From Balanoglossus misakiensis (lineage: Eukaryota; Animalia; Hemichordata), in the NCBI GenBank assembly GCA_040954595.2, contig CM082592.2, positions 5,105,772 to 5,114,405 of the forward strand: DNA of 8,634 bases, written 5' to 3'. Positions 1 to 8,634 of the stretch are shown in pieces. The position numbers and the translations under genes are program-made. Within the stretch, counting starts at the first letter, position 1. Every line of letters begins with the position of its first letter. A model generated the notes under the pieces. It saw only the letters and a list, made by a program, of their open reading frames with translations. It was not told where the DNA came from and made no database searches.

Positions 1-388
1 TCAGTGTTTTTGTCGATTTATGCAAGTTCAACCTTTCTGGTATGATTTCCGGAATGCAATTCTGCCAATTGGTCGCCGGACTTTGCGATGATGACAAACA
101 CCTACCCGGTAGTGCGTGAGAAACTTTGCACACCATGCGGGTGAGTTCACACATTGGAAATGTGTTACATCCATGCATAAGCCCGTGTTCCGAGTTCATT
201 TGTCGGAATTGTACAAGTAGTAGCCGGAGACCAGGGCGTCGATCTAGAATACAACGCCCGGGGACAGTCGAGTAATGTCCTGCTGAGCTGACAGATAGTA
301 GCCCTGGCAACGATCAGGGTCGCTTAGTAACGAATGGCTAACGAGTGATCTATCAAATGTTGACGGGCGCCAGTGGTTGGATGATATA

Positions 389-726
389 CCGTACTTGCCC
401 GGGTAAGAGCCCCGGGTGCTGCGCCCACAAATTACCGAAAAAACAGGGGGATGTATTTATTAAATAATAAAAAGTTTTTTTTCCCATAAATGAAATAAAT
501 AAAACATCCCGTTTAACCGGGACATTGGTAAATGGTCGATCCCACCCATGCATTTAATACTTAGACGTTGCACTTTATTAAATTTCCAAGAATTTAATGG
601 ATATTCGGCCGGGGGGGGGGGGGGCTTTAGACCGGATATAACCTCGATCTTCAAATGGGCCCTAAAACCAGGGGGGGGGGGGGGGGCGTTTGTCCGAGCA
701 GGGGGCTCTTACCCGGGCAAGTACGG
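389..726. mobile_element. Tc1/mariner-superfamily (Tc2/pogo-like) MITE, 338 bp, nested in the 221-980 element
   Basis: Perfect 25-bp TIR CCGTACTTGCCCGGGTAAGAGCCCC (389-413; complement 702-726) flanked by TA at 387-388 and 727-728. CCGTA termini with TA TSD are typical of Tc2/pogo-related elements. No transposase ORF. Confidence 0.92.
611..686 (+). repeat. Two poly-G tracts (G14 at 611-624, G16 at 671-686) inside the MITE
   Basis: Read directly; homopolymer lengths may be sequencing-sensitive. Confidence 0.9.
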
Positions 727-2426
727 TAATTAACAAAGCTTGGTTATGAATATTCATACACCTTCAAAACCACTCCCACATCCCGTTTTGAAAACATACT
801 TGGTGACTCCACCTCTATTTCCTTATTTAGAATGCGATGACGTCATTTGGTTTACATTGAGTGACCAATTAGCTTACATGCAAGATTTACCACCCGTGTC
901 GTTCTGCGCACAGAATTCGGTGCGTAAATAGAGACTGTCCCCGGGCGTTTCTTTTCCCCAACGCCCTGGTCTCCGGGCTATACAAGTAGAGTCTTTGTAT
1001 AATTCTTCAGCCTGCGTTATCAGTATTGTAAATGGTAAAGTATGTCGTCTTTGTCCTGTGCACAGCTTCGGCTATAGTGTTTTGTACAGACCCCACGCGG
1101 GCAGTTTGAAGTGTTTTTAAATGATCTGTATTTTAGTGAGTACATGTAGTCATGCAGTTCTACATTGGGGTGGCAATTAAGAGTTCAGTTCTGGACTTAT
1201 GTTGGTCCAGCCGGGACTGCAGGCTTAATTGTCCTGTATGTCTATGGGCTGGCCTTTATGTAACCACATTTCCAAGGTGTGAACTTGCCTGCATTTAAGT
1301 TTCTCACGCTGTAGGTGTGTGACAATGATGTTGGAAACAGTGGCAACCCTAAACCTCTCAGAAAACTTCATTAATTTTCAATATCCTGTAATTTGGATAA
1401 CAACACCCTGTTGGAACTACTTAAGATAATAAGTTCTTAAAATAGCCTGAAAATAGTTTACATTTCACTGTTGTACTTGATTTGTTTTTGTAAACAACTG
1501 CAATTATAATTTTTACTGAAACACAAGCAATTTTCAAAAAATGTCAATGAATATTCATACAATAGTTCCAATATGGTGGGCTTCACTGTTTCTATCGCGT
1601 CGAATAGTGACGATGAGAAATTCTGAATTTCACAATTGATGGGGGCTGCATTTTTTTAAATGTAGATCCTGAAAGATAATACTCGTTTGATAAGTTGACC
1701 AAGTGCGTCCTTTTATTGAATAGAATTTATGGTGTGTTGGTGTGTCGACCACCATGCATCTATCGTTGCCAAGATGTACAACTTGGGTTCACTTATTTGT
1801 GTGGAGTTTAAAGCCACCATCCGGACAAGACGTCATACCACATAATTAAAGTTATTGTGGCTGGAACACAACATTAAAACCCTAATAGCTGCCATTTTTT
1901 GCATTATTTTCATGATTTTAGTTTTAAATTTGAAATGGTCTACCTAAATGGGCTAACCGATGGGTAATCACAAATATAATATCAACCTCTGATTGTGGCT
2001 GTACCCGACCATGCACACTTAATAAAAACTCAAAATTTGAAATTGATGATCACTAATCGAATTGAGCTCAATCCCTTTTAAATTAATTTCACATTTTCAG
2101 CTTCTGTGATAATCTGAGATGGCCCTTATGCCCTCAGGGCTTTCTCTCTTTCAAAGAAAGAGAAAAAAAGAAACTTTTTCATTAATTGAATTTCCACTTT
2201 ACCGTTTCCTTATGATACGATAATGCTTCACTATGAGATATTATTGTCATGAGTTAAAAGACGAAAATAGTTCTATAGACTAGCTTATACAGTGAGTCTC
2301 GTGTGACGAAACATCTTAAGTCACAAAATCTGGCGTCTTAAATATGCATTCTTTCTCACAAGTACTTTTAGTGATGTCATAAAACTATACTGTTTCGTAA
2401 CTATGATTTTCAATAATTTTGATTAG

Positions 2427-2707
2427 AACATGGAACCAAATACCAAGGCGAAAAATCTGTTGAGGAAACCAAGGAGATTTTTGCAGATGCTCTCGTCGCT
2501 GGAATCAAAAAGGGTTCAGGGCAAACAGCTTCTGTTGAAAAGATTATTGCCTTACTTGATGAATTGAAGCTGAAAAACGAACCAGCGTATGATGTTCAGA
2601 AACGATTAAGACGTCGCTTGGAAGAAGTTAGTGATGGGGATAAACCTGACATGTACTTCAGTTTGTGGGATTATGCGGGGCAGCAGGTTTATTATATAAC
2701 TCACCAG
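2427..2707 (+). CDS. ROCO exon A: insert inside the Roc domain plus G3 motif
   Basis: Acceptor ttttgattAG (2425-2426), donor CAG|GTTTGT (2708). Open frame HGTKYQGEKSVEETKEIFADALVAGIKKG...DMYFSLWDYAGQQVYYITHQ; WDYAGQ at 2666-2683 is the Roc G3 (WDF/YAGQ) signature. The 5' boundary is less certain than the 3'. Confidence 0.88.
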
Positions 2708-5700
2708 GTTTGTGTCTTTTTATTGTATTCAGTATTATGTATTGCTAATTCCAAAGAAGGATCACATTTTAGCTTTCTTCTTCTTCAGAGACTGGAACAA
2801 ACGTACGGCATGTCCGAGAAATGTTTAAGACTTTGTCCAAATTGTCCTGTTTATTTTGTCGCCATTGAACGCAAAGAAAAACATAATTACAAAAGTCGAG
2901 AAATGAAAGTATGTACAACGCAAAAATGGGGAGGGCCATGAATATAATTCGAATGAAATTGTCCTAATTCATGACCCAAAATAAATACATGGGGGACCCT
3001 ATTGTACTAAGAAATACAAATATACTATAGTAAAGCAGGTGACGTGGGGGTACATCTTTTACCTGTGGTATTCAGCAGATATAAACAGGATATTAATTAC
3101 AAAATGTAGACGTATTTAATGTTATTTATATACAAAGATGGGAAATAATAAGATCACATATTGTACCTGAACGACAAAAAACAACAACAACAACAACAAC
3201 AGCAACAAAGGACTCGTACAAAAATCACAATCCCAACGCCCCTGGTTAATTATTGAAAATGTATTTCTTAACTTCTTTTTTTGAAAGCACGCCTTCTTTT
3301 TATCTATTTCAAAGTGTCACAAAAGTGCTGGCAAATAAATTAATCATTGTAATTGCCATCCCTCATTGACAGAGGGCAATAGACTATACACGCACAGCTA
3401 ATTCAGGGACTTATCAAAAACCAGACAGAGTATATGGCACTGAAACACTGGAATTCACTACCACTTATTCCATAATATAATAATGACACCATGCAGTCAA
3501 ATGTTTACTTTCGGTGCCCTGTTTAAACATTAGAAATAAAAGACCTCCACAAGCCCATGCTTCATTTAGTAATGAGGTTAATCAGCATTTAATGTCAGTC
3601 CAGAGGAAAAGATAATCTTATAGTGTGAGTCCTACTCTATAATGCAATCGACTTTAAAAGTTGAACAAAACAGGTATGCTGGTGACCCCAAGTCTAACGA
3701 TGCTTCGCGCAGCGTCTTTTTCCTGATATAGGCCTAAAGTTTGTGATAAATTTGCATTAACAAGCATAACTGTCATGATGCACCGCATGGTGGTACATGT
3801 GTGTTTTGTTTTTGTTCTAAACTCAAAACTGAAAATAAAAAGAACTAAAATTGACCCGAAATTACCAAGTTGCGGTGACGTACTTTTAAATAGGTTGCAT
3901 CAGGTGATAATTGTGCAATAGATAATTTTCTCTCGCTCTCTCTCACACACACACACACAAACAAACAAACACACAGGTATTCCTTGCCTCTAGAGTTATT
4001 TATATTCTTGTCACCGACCTTACAAAATCGCTGGACATCATGGCAACCGAAATGGACAACGAGTGGACTGTCAAAGGTACGTAAAACTTAAGCTTAATGA
4101 CATTCATTTCATTTTTACTACCAAAAGGTGGCAGGGAGGGTCTCTGAGTGGAGGGCTGGTGGACGTATAAGGCCCTCTGTTTCCTCGTCTGTATGAGGCT
4201 ACAAATTTAAAAGTGACTATATACCATATCTTATATCTTTCTATTTATATGACACTCGCCTGATTATACGTTTATCCTTTGTATGCACATGTTTAATTAT
4301 ATCAAAGACACCACTGATTTTAGGAATTGGATGACTTTTCACCCTGTGATACTACATGTATTACAGTAATGTTACTATATATGTTTTCTAACTGCTTACC
4401 CTCCTGATAAGTCGCCTGATTGCTATCATCAGTAATGTTGATGCCTATATTACGTGTCCATTTGGGCCAGCGGTACGTAAAGCAGTAATACTATCATGAT
4501 GCACATGTGCTTTATGGATCAATTTGTGTCTTTTTATAATCCACCCAGATTGATGCACACCAAATCTTGTTCTGTCGATACAGCTAATTGTGTTTTCATT
4601 CTTAGAATTCCTGAAGTTTTGGATGAACTCGATACATACCCATGCCAAACCTGGATCTGAATTCCATTTCCAAAATCAAGATGGAAGTGATAAGAAAGGT
4701 GTACCTGTACCACCAGTAATCATTTTAGGAACAAAGAAAGACTTACTGCAGGTACAATATAAGCGTACTAGTAAAGCATGCCTGAAAATCGCTGATGAAA
4801 TATGCTGGATAGTCCTACATGTACTATAAGAACATAAAGAACGATTGTTGTTAACAAATATTTTCATAGGACCTCGTGTAATTTTAGAGTACAGTTATAT
4901 GCAGGTGATGTGTTTATAGAAGGCTAAGGGTGAAGGACTGCATCTACGTTTACATATAAACCTCATTACTGTTTTAATAATAAATGTAACGATCTTTGGA
5001 TTGTAAAAACCTGAATCATGCAGTACCCATTTTCTCCTGTTTCAGAGAGACAGTCAACTTCATGGTGAAGTGAGAGACATAGAAGAAGAGGCTAAGCAGC
5101 GTCTTCGAGAAATCAAAGAGTATCTGAGCAAAAATGCTACCAAGGCAGTCAATCAACATCTTGTAGATATGATTGCCATTGACAACAAATCAAGGAAATC
5201 AGACAACACCACTCTGGATCCAGACGTTGAAAAACTTCGACAAATGGTACAACAGCTTGCAAAAGAGTATTTCTTCCTCGGAAAAGTTCCAGCGAAATGG
5301 ATACGCTTGGAACTTTCATTGCGTCAGCTTGAAAAGGAGAAGATTTCCCTCGATGAAGCGCAAAAATTGGGAAGGAAATTCGAAATGGAAGAAGATGAAA
5401 TAGGCAAGGCTTTGGCGTTCTATCACGACGTTGGGGAAATACTACACTTCAAGTCCATACCAGAACTCAAGGACACTGTCATCTTGAATGTGGGGTGGTT
5501 AGTTAATCTATTCAGAATATTGATCACCCAGTCAATCGGTTTCAAACAAGAGTTGGATGTCCCAACGCGAATATGTGGTCTGATTGATGAGTTGCATGGT
5601 AAAGGTATACTGTACGACGAATTGGTAGATTATCTACTGAAACAGCGTGACCGCTCAGAAGACAAGGTGATTCTTCTGGCAACATTGGAAGAGTATGACG

Positions 5701-8547
5701 TCATCTGCAAAATGTCTGCCTCGCAAGGAAGCAGGCCCTTTTATTGCCTACCAAGCCTACTCAAGAAAGATGCTGAAGGGAAGAATAGCGCCATCTGTCC
5801 AGCAGACACCAAATCATGCAGTCCTATGTATTTCCATTTCAAAGGCAATTTCCTACCCGAGGGGCTTTTCTACCGACTTGTTGTCCGGTGCCTGAAGAAG
5901 TGGCCGAACCAGCAAATGGTTTTACGCAAGCACAGAGCTCGTATATTCATGGATGAGGAGGATTTCCATGTAACCCTGCGCAAAGAAGGGTCTGACATCG
6001 AGCTGAATGCACTAGTTTTCACTGATGTCTCCAGTACAGTGCCGCTCCCACAGCCACAACATCTCCGGCCTGTTCGACGATTCGTTGAAGACGAATTAAA
6101 GCACCTCATCAAAGCCTACTATCCAAACTTGGTGTATACACTGTGTGTCAAGTGCAAGTGTTCAAGTCATAGTCGTGGAGGATTTCTTCAAGAGTGTGAA
6201 GATGTAGATGACGGATGTGTTGAAGTCAAAGTATCAAACCCAACAAAGACCACCTGTCCAAGTTGTGCTATAAAAGTGGTTTCTGAGGCCCTGAACGAGT
6301 GGTTTGACACAGGTGAGCGTTTCTTGACTTTGTATTTCCGTGAAAATATTTATTGTGATTTTATTTAACCACATGACCCACCTTGAAATATAATTTATTT
6401 ATACCATCATTGGGTTGGAATCGAGATAGTAAATACTACCGTTTTGATCATTAGAACTGATTAGAGCAGTTCTGTATCAACACACTCTGGGGGTGTCCTG
6501 CTTCGAACATGTCTAAAACACATGTGTACACATTTGTAAAGAGATTTTACACAGTGTCAGTTTTGAAGCAGGATGCCCCCTGTGGTACATGTTGATACAG
6601 AGCTATGTAATCAGTCATAATGATCATTGCAAATGTAACCATATGCCGACTTCAGCATAAAAATCTCAGTTTACTCTGGCTAATTATATTGGAGTTCTTA
6701 TCAGTGTTTCGGGGTGCTTAAATGACACCGGTAGTAACACAGCAGATGCTTAGCTGTGGTATGCTGTGTCCTCAAAAAGTGCCATACCTGTGCATAATTC
6801 CCAAGAACTAAACATGTCATCATTTCAGGGATTAATATAAATGCACGGAATGTGGAGGACAATACAAAAACTAACATTTCTATTCTTTGGAGATCTGTTG
6901 AGTGTTGTGCATGGTCATTTTGTCTATGGCCTATCTACCGTATGAGTTATGTAACCACGTGATGTACTATAGAAACGTAAAAACAAACCAGGGCAATGAT
7001 ATTTGACTGAGTATGATTGTTTTTTTTATATTCTGGTTGTCTGAAAGAAAATATCTTCATGATCTTACTTTTCATATTTCAGACCAGGATGACGACACGG
7101 CAGTGACCACGGGTGGAAGTAGCAAAGTTCCTGAGGAAGAAAAGGGGTAAATTGGATTCCTCATAAAATGTAATATGTATACGGTACAATTGCAAAATGT
7201 ATTTACATGACACGTTTTCTTAAAATGTTGTGGAATAGTAAAGATAACTAGGTAGTTAGGTTGGAAACACATTGTTGCAATAATACATTTGCTCAACAGG
7301 TATATACTTAAAAATCAATATACCGGTAGCAACAATTATAGATATTTGGTGGGTCTAGCTGGATCGAGTGATATCACTCCAAAGCAGTCTTTGGTGGTTT
7401 ATTAACTTCACTAAAACCATATATGCCTTAGCGCTAGCCTCAATATAACGTCATGAAATTTGTGTTTGTAGCAGGTTTTATCAAATTTGATCCAGTTTAT
7501 AGTTTCATTATGATCTCCATAAACTATGTACCATTATCATAAATACATCGATCCAGCGACCCACCAAATATCTATAATTGTTGCTATATTGATTTTTAAG
7601 TATACCTGTAGAGCAAAATGTCACTTAAACCTGTTTAGCATTTGTCGAGTTATCGCTTTGACAGGCCGACGACTTGTGTGAACACGATTTTTTTTATAAT
7701 GGAGAAGAAAATTGTTGGTTTCACCAAATCCTTAACCCTCCTGAAAATGTCGGGAAGTTTGTATGCCTTTGTACCAAATGGAACCTTGCTGGTTAGATGC
7801 TGGTGTTCGCGTTTCAAGTCTTATTTTATGTCTTGACCTCTCTCACCAGAATGGATAAAGTTAACCCACTTCGTACACTCTACAAGAATCTGGGTGATGC
7901 ATTATGGTCCTATGACGTGAATAGTATAAAAAATTTGTTGAGAGGTAATCAAATTAAAAACCGGGCCATCGAAAAACTTCATGATGCAGAAGGAATATTT
8001 CTTGCATTAGAAGAACGTGGCTACATAGCAGAGGACAACCTTCAGCTTCTGAAGGATATACTTCACAAAATACAGCAGAACCAGCTTGTACATTTGGTTG
8101 AAAACTATGAGTTAGAAAGAAGGGAACAAGCAGAAAATGTGCGAGCGGAGAAGCATGACCACCAACACGAACCTTCAGGTTAGTATTAGAATATAATATA
8201 GACATACTTGAATATTGCTTATAGATATCTGTTCATAAGTTTTCTATGACAATCCTCTATTGATAAGGTACACAAACTGAATATGCCACATACTAGTTAC
8301 TACCACATATTACCCTGGATGCTTGAGACACGACATGTTAAAAACGTGTGTCATGAATTCTCATGAATCTTAATAATGTTGGTTATTGCTTCTCCAGTAC
8401 CTGCAGGGACACAAACCCATGGATCTAGCCATGGACTTCAAGACATGAAGCCACAGGAATTCTCCGGGGGCTCATGCAAGTTAGAAAGAAGGAAACAAGC
8501 AGAAAATGTGCAAACGAAGGAGTGTGTTGATCAACCCGAACCTCCAG
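2427..8547 (+). CDS. Partial spliced ROCO-family gene (Roc-COR-Cys-rich-DED-repeat spacer); join(2427..2707,3977..4076,4606..4751,5046..6312,7083..7146,7850..8178,8398..8547); 5' and probably 3' ends outside window
   Basis: All six internal introns are GT..AG and intron phases match (0,1,0,1,2,1), giving one open frame of about 779 codons. Roc motifs continue across junctions (WDYAGQQVYYITHQ|VFLASRVIYILVTDL; WTVK-E|FLKFWMNSI). Confidence 0.88.
3181..3208 (+). repeat. (CAA)n microsatellite, intronic
   Basis: acaacaacaacaacaacaacagcaacaa read directly. Confidence 0.9.
3926..3976 (+). repeat. Compound microsatellite (TC)n(CA)n(CAAA)n forming the 3' splice site of exon B
   Basis: ttttctctcgctctctctc-acacacacacacac-aaacaaacaaac-acacAG read directly. 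Confidence 0.92.
3977..4076 (+). CDS. ROCO exon B (Roc domain, strand after switch II); not in the ORF track
   Basis: Acceptor cacacAG (3975-3976), donor AAG|GTACGT (4077). Translates VFLASRVIYILVTDLTKSLDIMATEMDNEWTVK, matching the Roc pattern HQxFLxxRxIYxLVxDL; phase 0 in, phase 1 out fits both neighbours. Confidence 0.92.
4606..4751 (+). CDS. ROCO exon C (Roc domain, G4 motif)
   Basis: Acceptor ttttcattcttAG (4604-4605), donor CAG|GTACAA (4752). (E)FLKFWMNSIHTHAKPG...PPVIILGTKKDLLQ matches Roc 'LxxWLxSI ... PPVIxVGTHxD'; GTKKD at 4728-4742. Confidence 0.93.
5046..6312 (+). CDS. ROCO exon D: end of Roc (G5-like IDNKS), COR domain, Cys-rich tail
   Basis: Acceptor ttttctcctgtttcAG (5044-5045), donor CAG|GTGAGC (6313). 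Contains COR motifs VPAKWIRLE, LAFYHDVGEILHF, LKDTVILNVGWL, and COR-B-like LPEGLFYRLVVR. Corresponds to ORF 5070..6368, whose GTG start and last 18 or so codons are artefacts of ignoring splicing. Confidence 0.94.
6445..6626. mobile_element. Degenerate palindromic (foldback/MITE-like) element in intron D-E
   Basis: Left arm TGATCATTAGAACTGATTA..TCTGTATCAACA..GGGGGTGTCCTGCTTCGAA pairs with the reverse complement of the right arm TGATCATTATGACTGATTA..TCTGTATCAACA..GGGGGCATCCTGCTTCAAA over about 60 bp. No clear TSD. Confidence 0.72.
7083..7146 (+). CDS. ROCO exon E: 64-nt acidic linker exon
   Basis: Acceptor cttttcatatttcAG (7081-7082), donor GG|GTAAAT (7147). GC-richer island in AT-rich intron; (D)QDDDTAVTTGGSSKVPEEEK(G). 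It supplies exactly the phase 1 to phase 2 shift needed to join exon D to the DED exon. Confidence 0.78.
7285..7621. mobile_element. MITE-like element with about 75-83-bp terminal inverted repeats in intron E-F
   Basis: 7285-7367 vs reverse complement of 7548-7621: near-identical (e.g. TAGCAACAATTATAGATATTTGGTGGGTC exact) apart from one substitution and small indels. No clear TSD. Confidence 0.85.
7850..8178 (+). CDS. Exon F: death effector domain (DED) plus start of spacer
   Basis: Acceptor cctctctcaccAG (7848-7849), donor CAG|GTTAGT (8179). LRTLYKNLGDALWSYDVNSIKNLL...IEKLHDAEGIFLALEERGYIAEDNLQLLKDILHKIQQNQLVHLVENY aligns by eye with the six-helix DED pattern (LFxxLExxxxLxxDNLxxLKxLLxxI) of FADD/caspase-8. 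Confidence 0.86.
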
Positions 8548-8634
8548 GTTAGTACTAGAATATACAACTTTTTATACTTGTAAAATGAGTATATTCTTTG
8601 TGCGTAATAGGATTTTTTCTATGAAAACCTGCTA
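8110..8634 (+). repeat. Direct duplication with about 369-bp offset covering exon 3' end, donor site and proximal intron
   Basis: AGTTAGAAAGAAGGGAACAAGCAGAAAATGTGC...GAACCTTCAGGTTAGTATTAGAATA (8110-8193) vs AGTTAGAAAGAAGGAAACAAGCAGAAAATGTGC...GAACCTCCAGGTTAGTACTAGAATA (8479-8562); weaker similarity continues (ATACTTG; TTTTCTATGA). Confidence 0.9.
8398..8547 (+). CDS. Exon G: 150-nt symmetric (phase 1-1) spacer exon, partly duplicating the 3' end of exon F
   Basis: Acceptor ttgcttctccAG (8396-8397), donor CAG|GTTAGT (8548). Open frame (V)PAGTQTHGSSHGLQDMKPQEFSGGSCKLERRKQAENVQTKECVDQPEPP. Confidence 0.75.

What the first reader, a model, noticed from the sequence alone, without database searches (positions are those of the whole stretch)
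2427..8547. ROCO GTPase fused in frame to a death effector domain (Roc-COR-DED): candidate invertebrate immune/cell-death switch
Seen: seven exons splice in frame, linking Roc and COR motifs through a 64-nt linker exon to a DED. Established: well-studied animal ROCOs are LRRK1/2 (kinase after COR), DAPK1 (death domain after COR) and MFHAS1; DEDs are known from FADD, caspase-8/10, c-FLIP, PEA-15 and DEDD, usually N-terminal. I know of no characterised protein with a DED directly after COR, though uncharacterised invertebrate ROCO expansions with death-fold domains exist. Inference: nucleotide-dependent Roc-COR dimerisation could cluster DEDs and recruit or block a caspase-8/FADD-like partner, an NLR-like logic using a GTPase instead of a NACHT ATPase.
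Basis: partly seen in the sequence, partly recalled or inferred. Interest (0 to 1): 0.8.

Follow-up and report, generated by a model that had tools for sequence, protein, structure and literature searches.

The report
Acorn-worm GTPase–death-effector fusion gene
Seven exons here, likely from an acorn worm, are predicted to splice into one protein joining a LRRK2-type GTPase module to a death effector domain; it belongs to an expanded family for which no study was found and likely works as an immune or cell-death switch, a variant of a layout already listed for other invertebrates.

Summary
Seven GT-AG exons join with matching phases into 779 stop-free codons. COR-A, COR-B and DED pass Pfam cut-offs, and exon D folds like bacterial Roco and LRRK1/2. 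No RNA confirms the junctions. The fusion is backed instead by 18 of 207 fetched proteins, all acorn-worm gene models, with a DED after COR. The window nests among Ptychodera flava paralogues. Corrections: the P-loop exon lies outside the window; the frame runs on past the DED (the top hit continues into a GT4 glycosyltransferase); the DED lacks FADD's FL and RxDL residues; and in the bacterial Roco studied, GTP breaks the dimer, so a released DED is likelier than dimer-clustered DEDs. The layout is not new: Kaur 2021 lists a sponge AP-GTPase+COR+DED+TRADD-N+caspase, DED is one of about ten domains seen after COR in related proteins, and this scan noted Roc-COR-DED in feather stars (unchecked). 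Nine literature searches found no paper on the acorn-worm family. Verdict: real, uncharacterised variant of a known kind; interest 0.38.

The parts
2427..2707 (+). Exon A: Roc helical insert and the G3 motif (WDYAGQ); phase 1 in, 0 out. First exon seen, not the first of the gene
   Evidence: Roc E 0.006; 39-47% to the nine Roc-COR-DED relatives from about their residue 46 of Roc
3977..4076 (+). Exon B: Roc strand after switch II; phase 0 in, 1 out
4606..4751 (+). Exon C: Roc helix and G4 motif (TKKD); phase 1 in, 0 out
5046..6312 (+). Exon D: end of Roc, COR-A, COR-B and a conserved Cys/His tail (likely a zinc site); phase 0 in, 1 out
   Evidence: pLDDT 90; C. tepidum Roco E 1.6e-13, LRRK1, LRRK2
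7083..7146 (+). Exon E: 64-nt polar linker; phase 1 in, 2 out
   Evidence: best of 41 candidates
7850..8178 (+). Exon F: death effector domain (about 7860-8110) plus a charged tail; phase 2 in, 1 out; strong donor, stop follows at once on read-through
   Evidence: (DED E 2.8e-14)
8398..8547 (+). Exon G (less certain): 150-nt phase 1-1 low-complexity exon whose 3' part duplicates the end of exon F and its donor
   Evidence: 8110-8195 vs 8479-8564, 84%; no protein match

Best explanation
This is the predicted Roc-COR-DED core of an acorn-worm ROCO gene, with no kinase in the part seen, that likely works as an intracellular immune or cell-death switch: GTP loading of Roc would open the protein and free the DED on its flexible linker, and the DED would then bind another DED protein (caspase-8/FADD-like, or a DED-bearing conflict protein) to pass the signal on. 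Shown: the exons, frame, domains, G3/G4 motifs, COR fold, and the same domain order in 18 acorn-worm gene models. Inferred: splicing of this copy, an upstream P-loop exon and sensor region outside the window, GTP binding, the direction of the switch (from C. tepidum Roco and LRRK2), the partner and the immune role.
For: Domains and frame. DED after COR in 18 of 207 fetched proteins: 8 Ptychodera flava, 8 Glandiceps talaboti, 2 Saccoglossus kowalevskii. An intact GxxxxGKT P-loop in 18 of 27 close relatives; the other 9 show no Roc-start P-loop and most begin past it. Paralogues cluster by species in a 33-row COR tree, and the window falls in a 12-row P. flava clade, SH-aLRT 98 (quick tree): lineage-specific expansion, as in invertebrate immune families. 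The DED diverges faster than the Roc core (29-43% vs 54-64% identity to 8 relatives). In 74 of the 139 new wider-family representatives that I scanned, the post-COR slot holds Death (23), TIR (8), HEPN (5), DED, CARD, caspase, GT4 (3 each), OTU, PNP (2 each), kinase, trypsin (1 each); 5 of the 74 showed only their top five families. Kaur 2021 describes the same LRR-AP-GTPase-COR-variable-effector layout as a bacterial counter-invader system (section 15). GTP opens and monomerises CtRoco, and weakening the COR-B dimer raises LRRK2 activity. In the model of relative P0002 the linker has pLDDT under 50 and the DED 79-87 (whole model weak, mean 52).
Against: No read supports any junction. The P-loop exon is absent from the window. 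The DED has N at the FADD F25 position and Q/Q at R72/D74; F occurs there in 0 of 18 C-terminal ROCO DEDs and D74 in 3 of 18, against 7 of 7 in N-terminal ROCO DEDs. FADD needs F25, R72 and neighbours for filaments and apoptosis (PMC12403089 passages). No host FADD or caspase-8 sequence was obtained, so the partner is untested. 4 of 27 close gene models end just after the COR tail with no DED or GT4. No expression or infection data link the family to immunity: the S. kowalevskii dsRNA-challenge paper has 0 mentions of Roco in its text and in the one supplement file held.
Confidence: 0.45

Rival explanations
1. The DED is a decoy or cap, like cFLIP or PEA-15: it binds a host DED chain through the surfaces it keeps but cannot extend it, so the protein would damp rather than trigger caspase-8 signalling.
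For: FL and RxDL positions are lost in the window and largely in the family's C-terminal DEDs (0 of 18 F, 3 of 18 D), while the Tyr and Phe of helices 1 and 4 that align with caspase-8 DED1 are kept.
Against: [quoted passage not shown] The human motifs may not transfer to acorn worms. The same slot holds active enzymes in relatives.
Confidence: 0.2
2. In this copy the DED is an internal adaptor and the real output is a further domain beyond the window, most likely a GT4 glycosyltransferase; the switch would license an enzyme and the DED would dock partners.
For: The frame continues through two donors with no stop. 16 of 18 relatives end within 6 residues of the DED and one after 21; the one long exception is the top COR hit P0001, Roc-COR-DED-GT4. 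Three more relatives have GT4 (or its first residues) directly after COR. DED+GT4 and AP-GTPase+COR+GT4 are listed by Kaur 2021.
Against: The window's tail matches no fetched protein, P0001's linker included. The window is not resolved as sister to P0001 in the tree. Exon G is partly a local duplication, and read-through of either donor gives an immediate stop.
Confidence: 0.15
3. One reading: GTP-dependent Roc-COR dimerisation clusters two DEDs and so seeds a caspase-8 or FADD chain.
For: COR mediates Roco dimers and an older model made the GTP-bound dimer the active form (PMC4104024 passages). The DED sits directly after COR-B, the dimer surface.
Against: CtRoco is a dimer with GDP or no nucleotide and a monomer with GTP. 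FADD-caspase-8 structures use one or three FADD DEDs on a caspase-8 trimer rather than a simple DED pair.
Confidence: 0.12
4. The in-frame joining is not used in this copy: the gene lacks its P-loop exon or is a decaying paralogue, or exon F, which opens on an ATG, belongs to a separate transcript.
For: No P-loop in the window's 2.4 kb before exon A, which has a CpG-rich first kilobase with CRE-like and CCAAT motifs. Exon F starts one base before an ATG. 4 of 27 gene models end after COR. The window has lost the R72-position Arg kept as R or K in 17 of 18 relatives.
Against: 779 codons without a stop or frameshift; a phase-bridging linker exon with the best acceptor of 76; no AATAAA or ATTAAA in 6313-7849; 18 fused relatives in three genera; introns of 0.2-1.3 kb here make a longer upstream intron plausible.
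Confidence: 0.08

Closest known systems
Acorn-worm RefSeq gene models 'probable serine/threonine-protein kinase pats1/qkgA/roco4' (P0001-P0009, P0013, P0014, P0017, P0019, P0020, P0024; P. flava, G. talaboti, S. kowalevskii)
   Same: Same order Roc-COR-A-COR-B-Cys tail-linker-DED, 43-58% identity over exon D for the nine with a DED, no kinase domain by Pfam despite the automatic names.
   Different: Uncharacterised predictions. Most end at the DED, whereas the window's frame runs on. The window has lost the R72-position Arg.
AP-GTPase (Roc)-COR conflict proteins of Kaur et al. [quoted passage not shown]
   Same: Roc-COR core with a variable C-terminal effector slot; COR directly followed by DED in the sponge protein; GT4 as an alternative effector.
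   Different: The text I read treats bacterial LRR-bearing forms; the sponge protein carries its own caspase; no acorn-worm COR+DED entry was found ('COR+DED' occurs once in 12 of 13 supplement files searched, one of them cut when stored).
DAPK1 and the Trichoplax ROCO expansion
   Same: Death-fold domain combined with Roc-COR; at least 17 Trichoplax ROCOs, some with CARD and death domains (PMC4104024 passages). That DAPK1's death domain follows COR is recalled.
   Different: Death domain or CARD, not DED; DAPK1 has an N-terminal kinase.
C. tepidum Roco, LRRK1, LRRK2
   Same: Roc-COR fold (Foldseek E 1.6e-13 to CtRoco, 8.8e-10 to LRRK1, 3.3e-9 to LRRK2) and G3/G4 motifs.
   Different: 13-17% identity; no LRR, kinase or WD40 in the window; a helical insert of some 70 residues before G3 and a Cys/His tail.
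FADD, caspase-8, cFLIP, PEA-15 DEDs
   Same: Pfam DED above cut-off; profile hits to all four in the PDB.
   Different: Single DED placed after a GTPase module; FL and RxDL residues not kept.
Brown-algal LRR-ROCO candidate immune receptors (PMC11378527, abstract only)
   Same: Expanded ROCO family proposed as immune receptors.
   Different: They have shuffled one-repeat LRR exons; the sensor end of this gene is not in the window.

Membership tests
ROCO (Roc-COR) GTPases | Roc G domain with G1 P-loop and G2 Thr | tested here: inconclusive
   Not in the window in any frame; present in 18 of 27 close relatives.
ROCO (Roc-COR) GTPases | G3 DxxG and G4 (N/T)KxD motifs | tested here: met
   WDYAGQ and GTKKD align with the family; motif labels are recalled.
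ROCO (Roc-COR) GTPases | COR-A and COR-B directly after Roc | tested here: met
   Both above Pfam cut-off; model pLDDT 90, best matches CtRoco COR, LRRK1, LRRK2.
ROCO (Roc-COR) GTPases | GTP binding, hydrolysis and a nucleotide-linked monomer-dimer cycle | not testable with these tools
   Needs biochemistry.
LRRK/DAPK kinase ROCOs | Protein kinase domain | tested here: not met
   No kinase in six window exons or in the 27 close relatives; the unseen ends of this gene cannot be excluded.
DED proteins | DED profile match and six-helix death fold | tested here: met
   Pfam 53.5 bits, cut-off 35.9; caspase-8/FADD hits; helical DED at pLDDT 79-87 in relative P0002. The window's own DED was not folded.
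FADD-type filament-forming DED | FL motif on helix 2 | tested here: not met
   N-L in the window; F in 0 of 18 C-terminal family DEDs. Register taken from the caspase-8 alignment; FADD numbering transferred from recall.
FADD-type filament-forming DED | RxDL motif on helix 6 | tested here: not met
   Q-N-Q-L in the window; D in 3 of 18 C-terminal and 7 of 7 N-terminal ROCO DEDs.
NLR/STAND receptors | NACHT or NB-ARC ATPase | tested here: not met
   No such Pfam hit; the NTPase is a Roc GTPase. The likeness is one of logic only.
AP-GTPase-COR conflict systems (Kaur 2021) | Variable C-terminal effector slot after COR | tested here: met
   DED, GT4 or DED+GT4 in close relatives; eleven Pfam domain types in the wider family.
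AP-GTPase-COR conflict systems (Kaur 2021) | Fast-evolving N-terminal repeat sensor | not testable with these tools
   The 5' end is outside the window and no genome is held. Ankyrin in P0026, LRR in P0071, DED in P0021; most close models start at or near the P-loop.

The most novel reading that the evidence does not exclude
Acorn worms have a family of NLR-like intracellular receptors built on a GTPase chassis: a hypervariable N-terminal sensor (ankyrin cassettes or one-codon microexons, as noted unchecked for other ROCO genes of this genome) gates GTP loading, and the freed DED recruits caspase-8 directly, giving a DISC-like death complex that needs neither a death receptor nor FADD, with DED and GT4 as swappable outputs.
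Probability: 0.15. Interest if true: 0.75.

Novelty: new variant of a known kind. Interest (0 to 1): 0.38.

Why it matters
If the reading is right, ROCO GTPases, known mostly through LRRK2 in Parkinson's disease, serve in invertebrate deuterostomes as receptor-like switches wired to the caspase-8 pathway. A Roc-COR-DED protein of about 800 residues with no kinase would be a small animal model for how the Roc-COR cycle controls a C-terminal output, with DED binding as the read-out. As a domain combination alone it is modest: it is one of many effector swaps on invertebrate ROCOs, present in public gene models of three acorn-worm genera and in one published table for a sponge.

Tried and rejected
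No whole genome is held for the window, so the contig could not be extended. The sequencing-run search on exon D listed no RNA holder; this is no evidence on expression, and no reads were laid. The homolog search with the DED alone, longer proteins only, found none at E 0.001 among 149 candidates, so no host FADD or caspase-8 was obtained. phmmer of exon D against the PDB gave 0 hits; the family profile and the fold search did find Roco structures. The complex prediction for two copies of exon D residues 70-422 gave no verdict (score 0.00). The full-length model of relative P0002 from an 8-sequence alignment was weak (pLDDT 52, pTM 0.34), was used only for the DED and linker, and was not fold-searched. 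The DED tree (26 rows, 91 columns) does not resolve the origin of the DED. The careful COR tree did not finish; the quick tree is quoted. A direct exon D to 7861 splice would also be in frame but that acceptor scores 2.5 against 11.6 for 7850: rejected as the main form. A P-loop remnant in 1-2426 was sought and not found. Rfam: 0 hits. Searches of earlier scan notes by sequence found 0 look-alikes and none near this place. My first guess from base composition and gene style was amphioxus; the homologs point to an acorn worm.
Full report
Observation. All have AG/GT ends, their phases chain, and the joined frame has 779 codons and no stop. Pfam gives COR-A (E 2.7e-13), COR-B (1.8e-6) and DED (2.8e-14) above their cut-offs and a weak Roc hit on exon A. 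The DED matches caspase-8 and FADD chains in the PDB. A model of exon D (pLDDT 90, pTM 0.83, 71 sequences) matches C. tepidum Roco, LRRK1 and LRRK2 at 13-17% identity. The linker exon is the best of 41 stop-free phase-1-to-2 candidates and has the best of 76 acceptors by a simple score of my own; there is no AATAAA or ATTAAA between exons D and F. No RNA reads were available, so the splicing of this copy is inferred.

The gene is open at both ends. About 45 residues of Roc with the P-loop and switch I are not in the window; 18 of 27 close relatives carry them intact. After the DED the frame continues through two good donors. Exon G is partly a tandem copy of the end of exon F (84% over 86 nt) and matches no fetched protein.

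Family. The closest proteins are acorn-worm gene models: 39-58% identity over exon D for 11 of the 12 hits, the twelfth a feather-star protein at 29%. Among 27 close models from Ptychodera flava, Glandiceps talaboti and Saccoglossus kowalevskii, 15 have a DED after COR, 1 stops in the first DED helix, 3 have GT4 or its start after COR, 1 has an N-terminal DED and stops inside COR, 3 more stop inside COR and 4 end just after the COR tail. One of the 15, the top hit P0001, is Roc-COR-DED-GT4. Over all 207 proteins fetched, 18 have a DED after COR and all 18 are acorn-worm; the DED profile used was built from acorn-worm DEDs and the hits were ranked by likeness to this family, so distant cases can be missed. 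In a quick tree of 33 COR rows the window falls in a 12-row P. flava clade (SH-aLRT 98) on a branch of 0.44, and paralogues group by species. The source is therefore likely a ptychoderid acorn worm and the family has expanded separately in each lineage. The wider family is large (377 representatives at E 1e-30). Of 74 of the 139 new representatives that I scanned, the slot after COR holds Death in 23, TIR 8, HEPN 5, DED 3, CARD 3, caspase 3, GT4 3, OTU 2, PNP 2, kinase 1, trypsin 1; five showed only their top five families. The ESM Atlas gives mollusc and sponge clusters of Roc-COR with Death or CARD as nearest neighbours.

The DED. Using the caspase-8 alignment for register (FADD numbering transferred from recall), the window has N at F25 and Q at both R72 and D74. 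F occurs at that place in 0 of 18 C-terminal and 0 of 7 N-terminal ROCO DEDs; D74 in 3 of 18 and 7 of 7; R or K at R72 in 17 of 18 C-terminal ones. FADD needs F25, L26 and R72 for filaments and apoptosis (PMC12403089, passages), but the FL motif of caspase-8 DED2 is dispensable for FADD binding (PMC11074299, passages). So the DED is real but is not a FADD-type self-assembler by human rules; activator and decoy both remain open. It diverges faster than the Roc core (29-43% against 54-64% to eight relatives).

Mechanism. Best reading (0.45): an upstream sensor gates GTP loading, Roc-COR opens, and the DED on its flexible linker becomes free to bind a DED partner. The direction comes from C. tepidum Roco, a dimer with GDP or no nucleotide and a monomer with GTP (PMC5714945, abstract; PMC11052575, abstract and first part of the discussion); an older model had the GTP dimer active (PMC4104024, passages). 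None of these steps was shown for this protein. Rivals: decoy DED (0.2), DED as an internal adaptor before an unseen enzyme such as GT4 (0.15), dimer-clustered DEDs (0.12), fusion not used or gene defective (0.08).

What is known. Kaur et al. 2021 (PMC8195603; passages, section 15 and supplement searches) describe LRR-AP-GTPase-COR proteins with at least 24 alternative C-terminal effectors in bacteria, and their supplement lists one sponge protein as APGTPase+COR+DED+TRADDN+CASPASE. One of 13 supplement files was not searched and file 4 was cut when stored, so an acorn-worm entry could be hidden there. Trichoplax has at least 17 ROCOs, some with CARD and death domains; sea anemones and Aplysia have Roc-COR with TIR or Death (PMC5094078, PMC9334734, passages); brown-algal ROCOs are proposed immune receptors (PMC11378527, abstract). 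PMC7159879 (passages) mentions AP-GTPase-COR in bacterial conflict systems. PMC5823876 (LRRK2 binding FADD) was seen only as a search listing. Nine searches of the held library (five aimed at ROCO with DED or with acorn worms: 12, 22, 37, 57, 98) found no paper on the acorn-worm Roc-COR-DED family; subscription journals are mostly not held. The S. kowalevskii dsRNA-challenge paper (PMC10210618; passages and one short supplement file) does not mention Roco; its gene tables were not visible and may bear on the immune claim. Earlier unchecked notes of this scan report ankyrin-Roc-COR-DED genes in feather stars and several hypervariable-sensor ROCO genes in this same genome; I could not test them and treat them as leads for the missing 5' end.

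Verdict. A real, well-supported gene fragment of an uncharacterised acorn-worm ROCO family. It is a member of the ROCO family on every feature testable in the window except the unseen P-loop, it is not an NLR and not a kinase ROCO as far as seen, and the COR-DED join is a variant of a known modular layout. Interest 0.38; the bold case (a FADD-independent, GTPase-gated caspase-8 receptor family) has probability 0.15 and would deserve 0.75.

Noticed in passing
window 387-728: Perfect 27-nt inverted repeats 288 nt apart, with TA at both ends: likely a miniature inverted-repeat transposon.
   Followed up: partly
window 7303-7604: Nested perfect inverted repeats (20 nt and 29 nt) bounding about 300 nt in the intron before the DED exon: likely a second MITE.
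   Followed up: partly
window 8110-8259 and 8479-8634: Tandem duplication, spacing 369 nt, of the end of exon F, its donor and intron start; the copy supplies the end of exon G and may show a new exon arising or the start of an exon array.
   Followed up: partly
window 1-1000: CpG observed/expected 0.8-1.1, with TGACGTCA at 838 and CCAAT at 865: possibly a promoter or a repeat inside the presumed upstream intron. Several later windows are also CpG-rich, so the signal is weak.
   Followed up: no
window about 6140-6260 (exon D residues 367-404): Cys/His cluster at the end of COR-B; two Cys are kept in most rows of the 71-row alignment and Cys, His, Cys between them in the acorn-worm clade: a likely zinc site.
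   Followed up: partly
P0077 (Owenia fusiformis), P0078, P0113, P0047, P0049: Roc-COR fused to a caspase domain; P0077 also has an N-terminal Bcl-2 domain, giving Bcl-2-Roc-COR-caspase.
   Followed up: no
P0021, P0074, P0080 (acorn worms), P0089 (Anneissia japonica): ROCOs with an N-terminal DED that keeps the RxD motif; they could be homotypic partners of the C-terminal DEDs.
   Followed up: no
window 3180-3208: (AAC)n microsatellite, about 10 copies.
   Followed up: no
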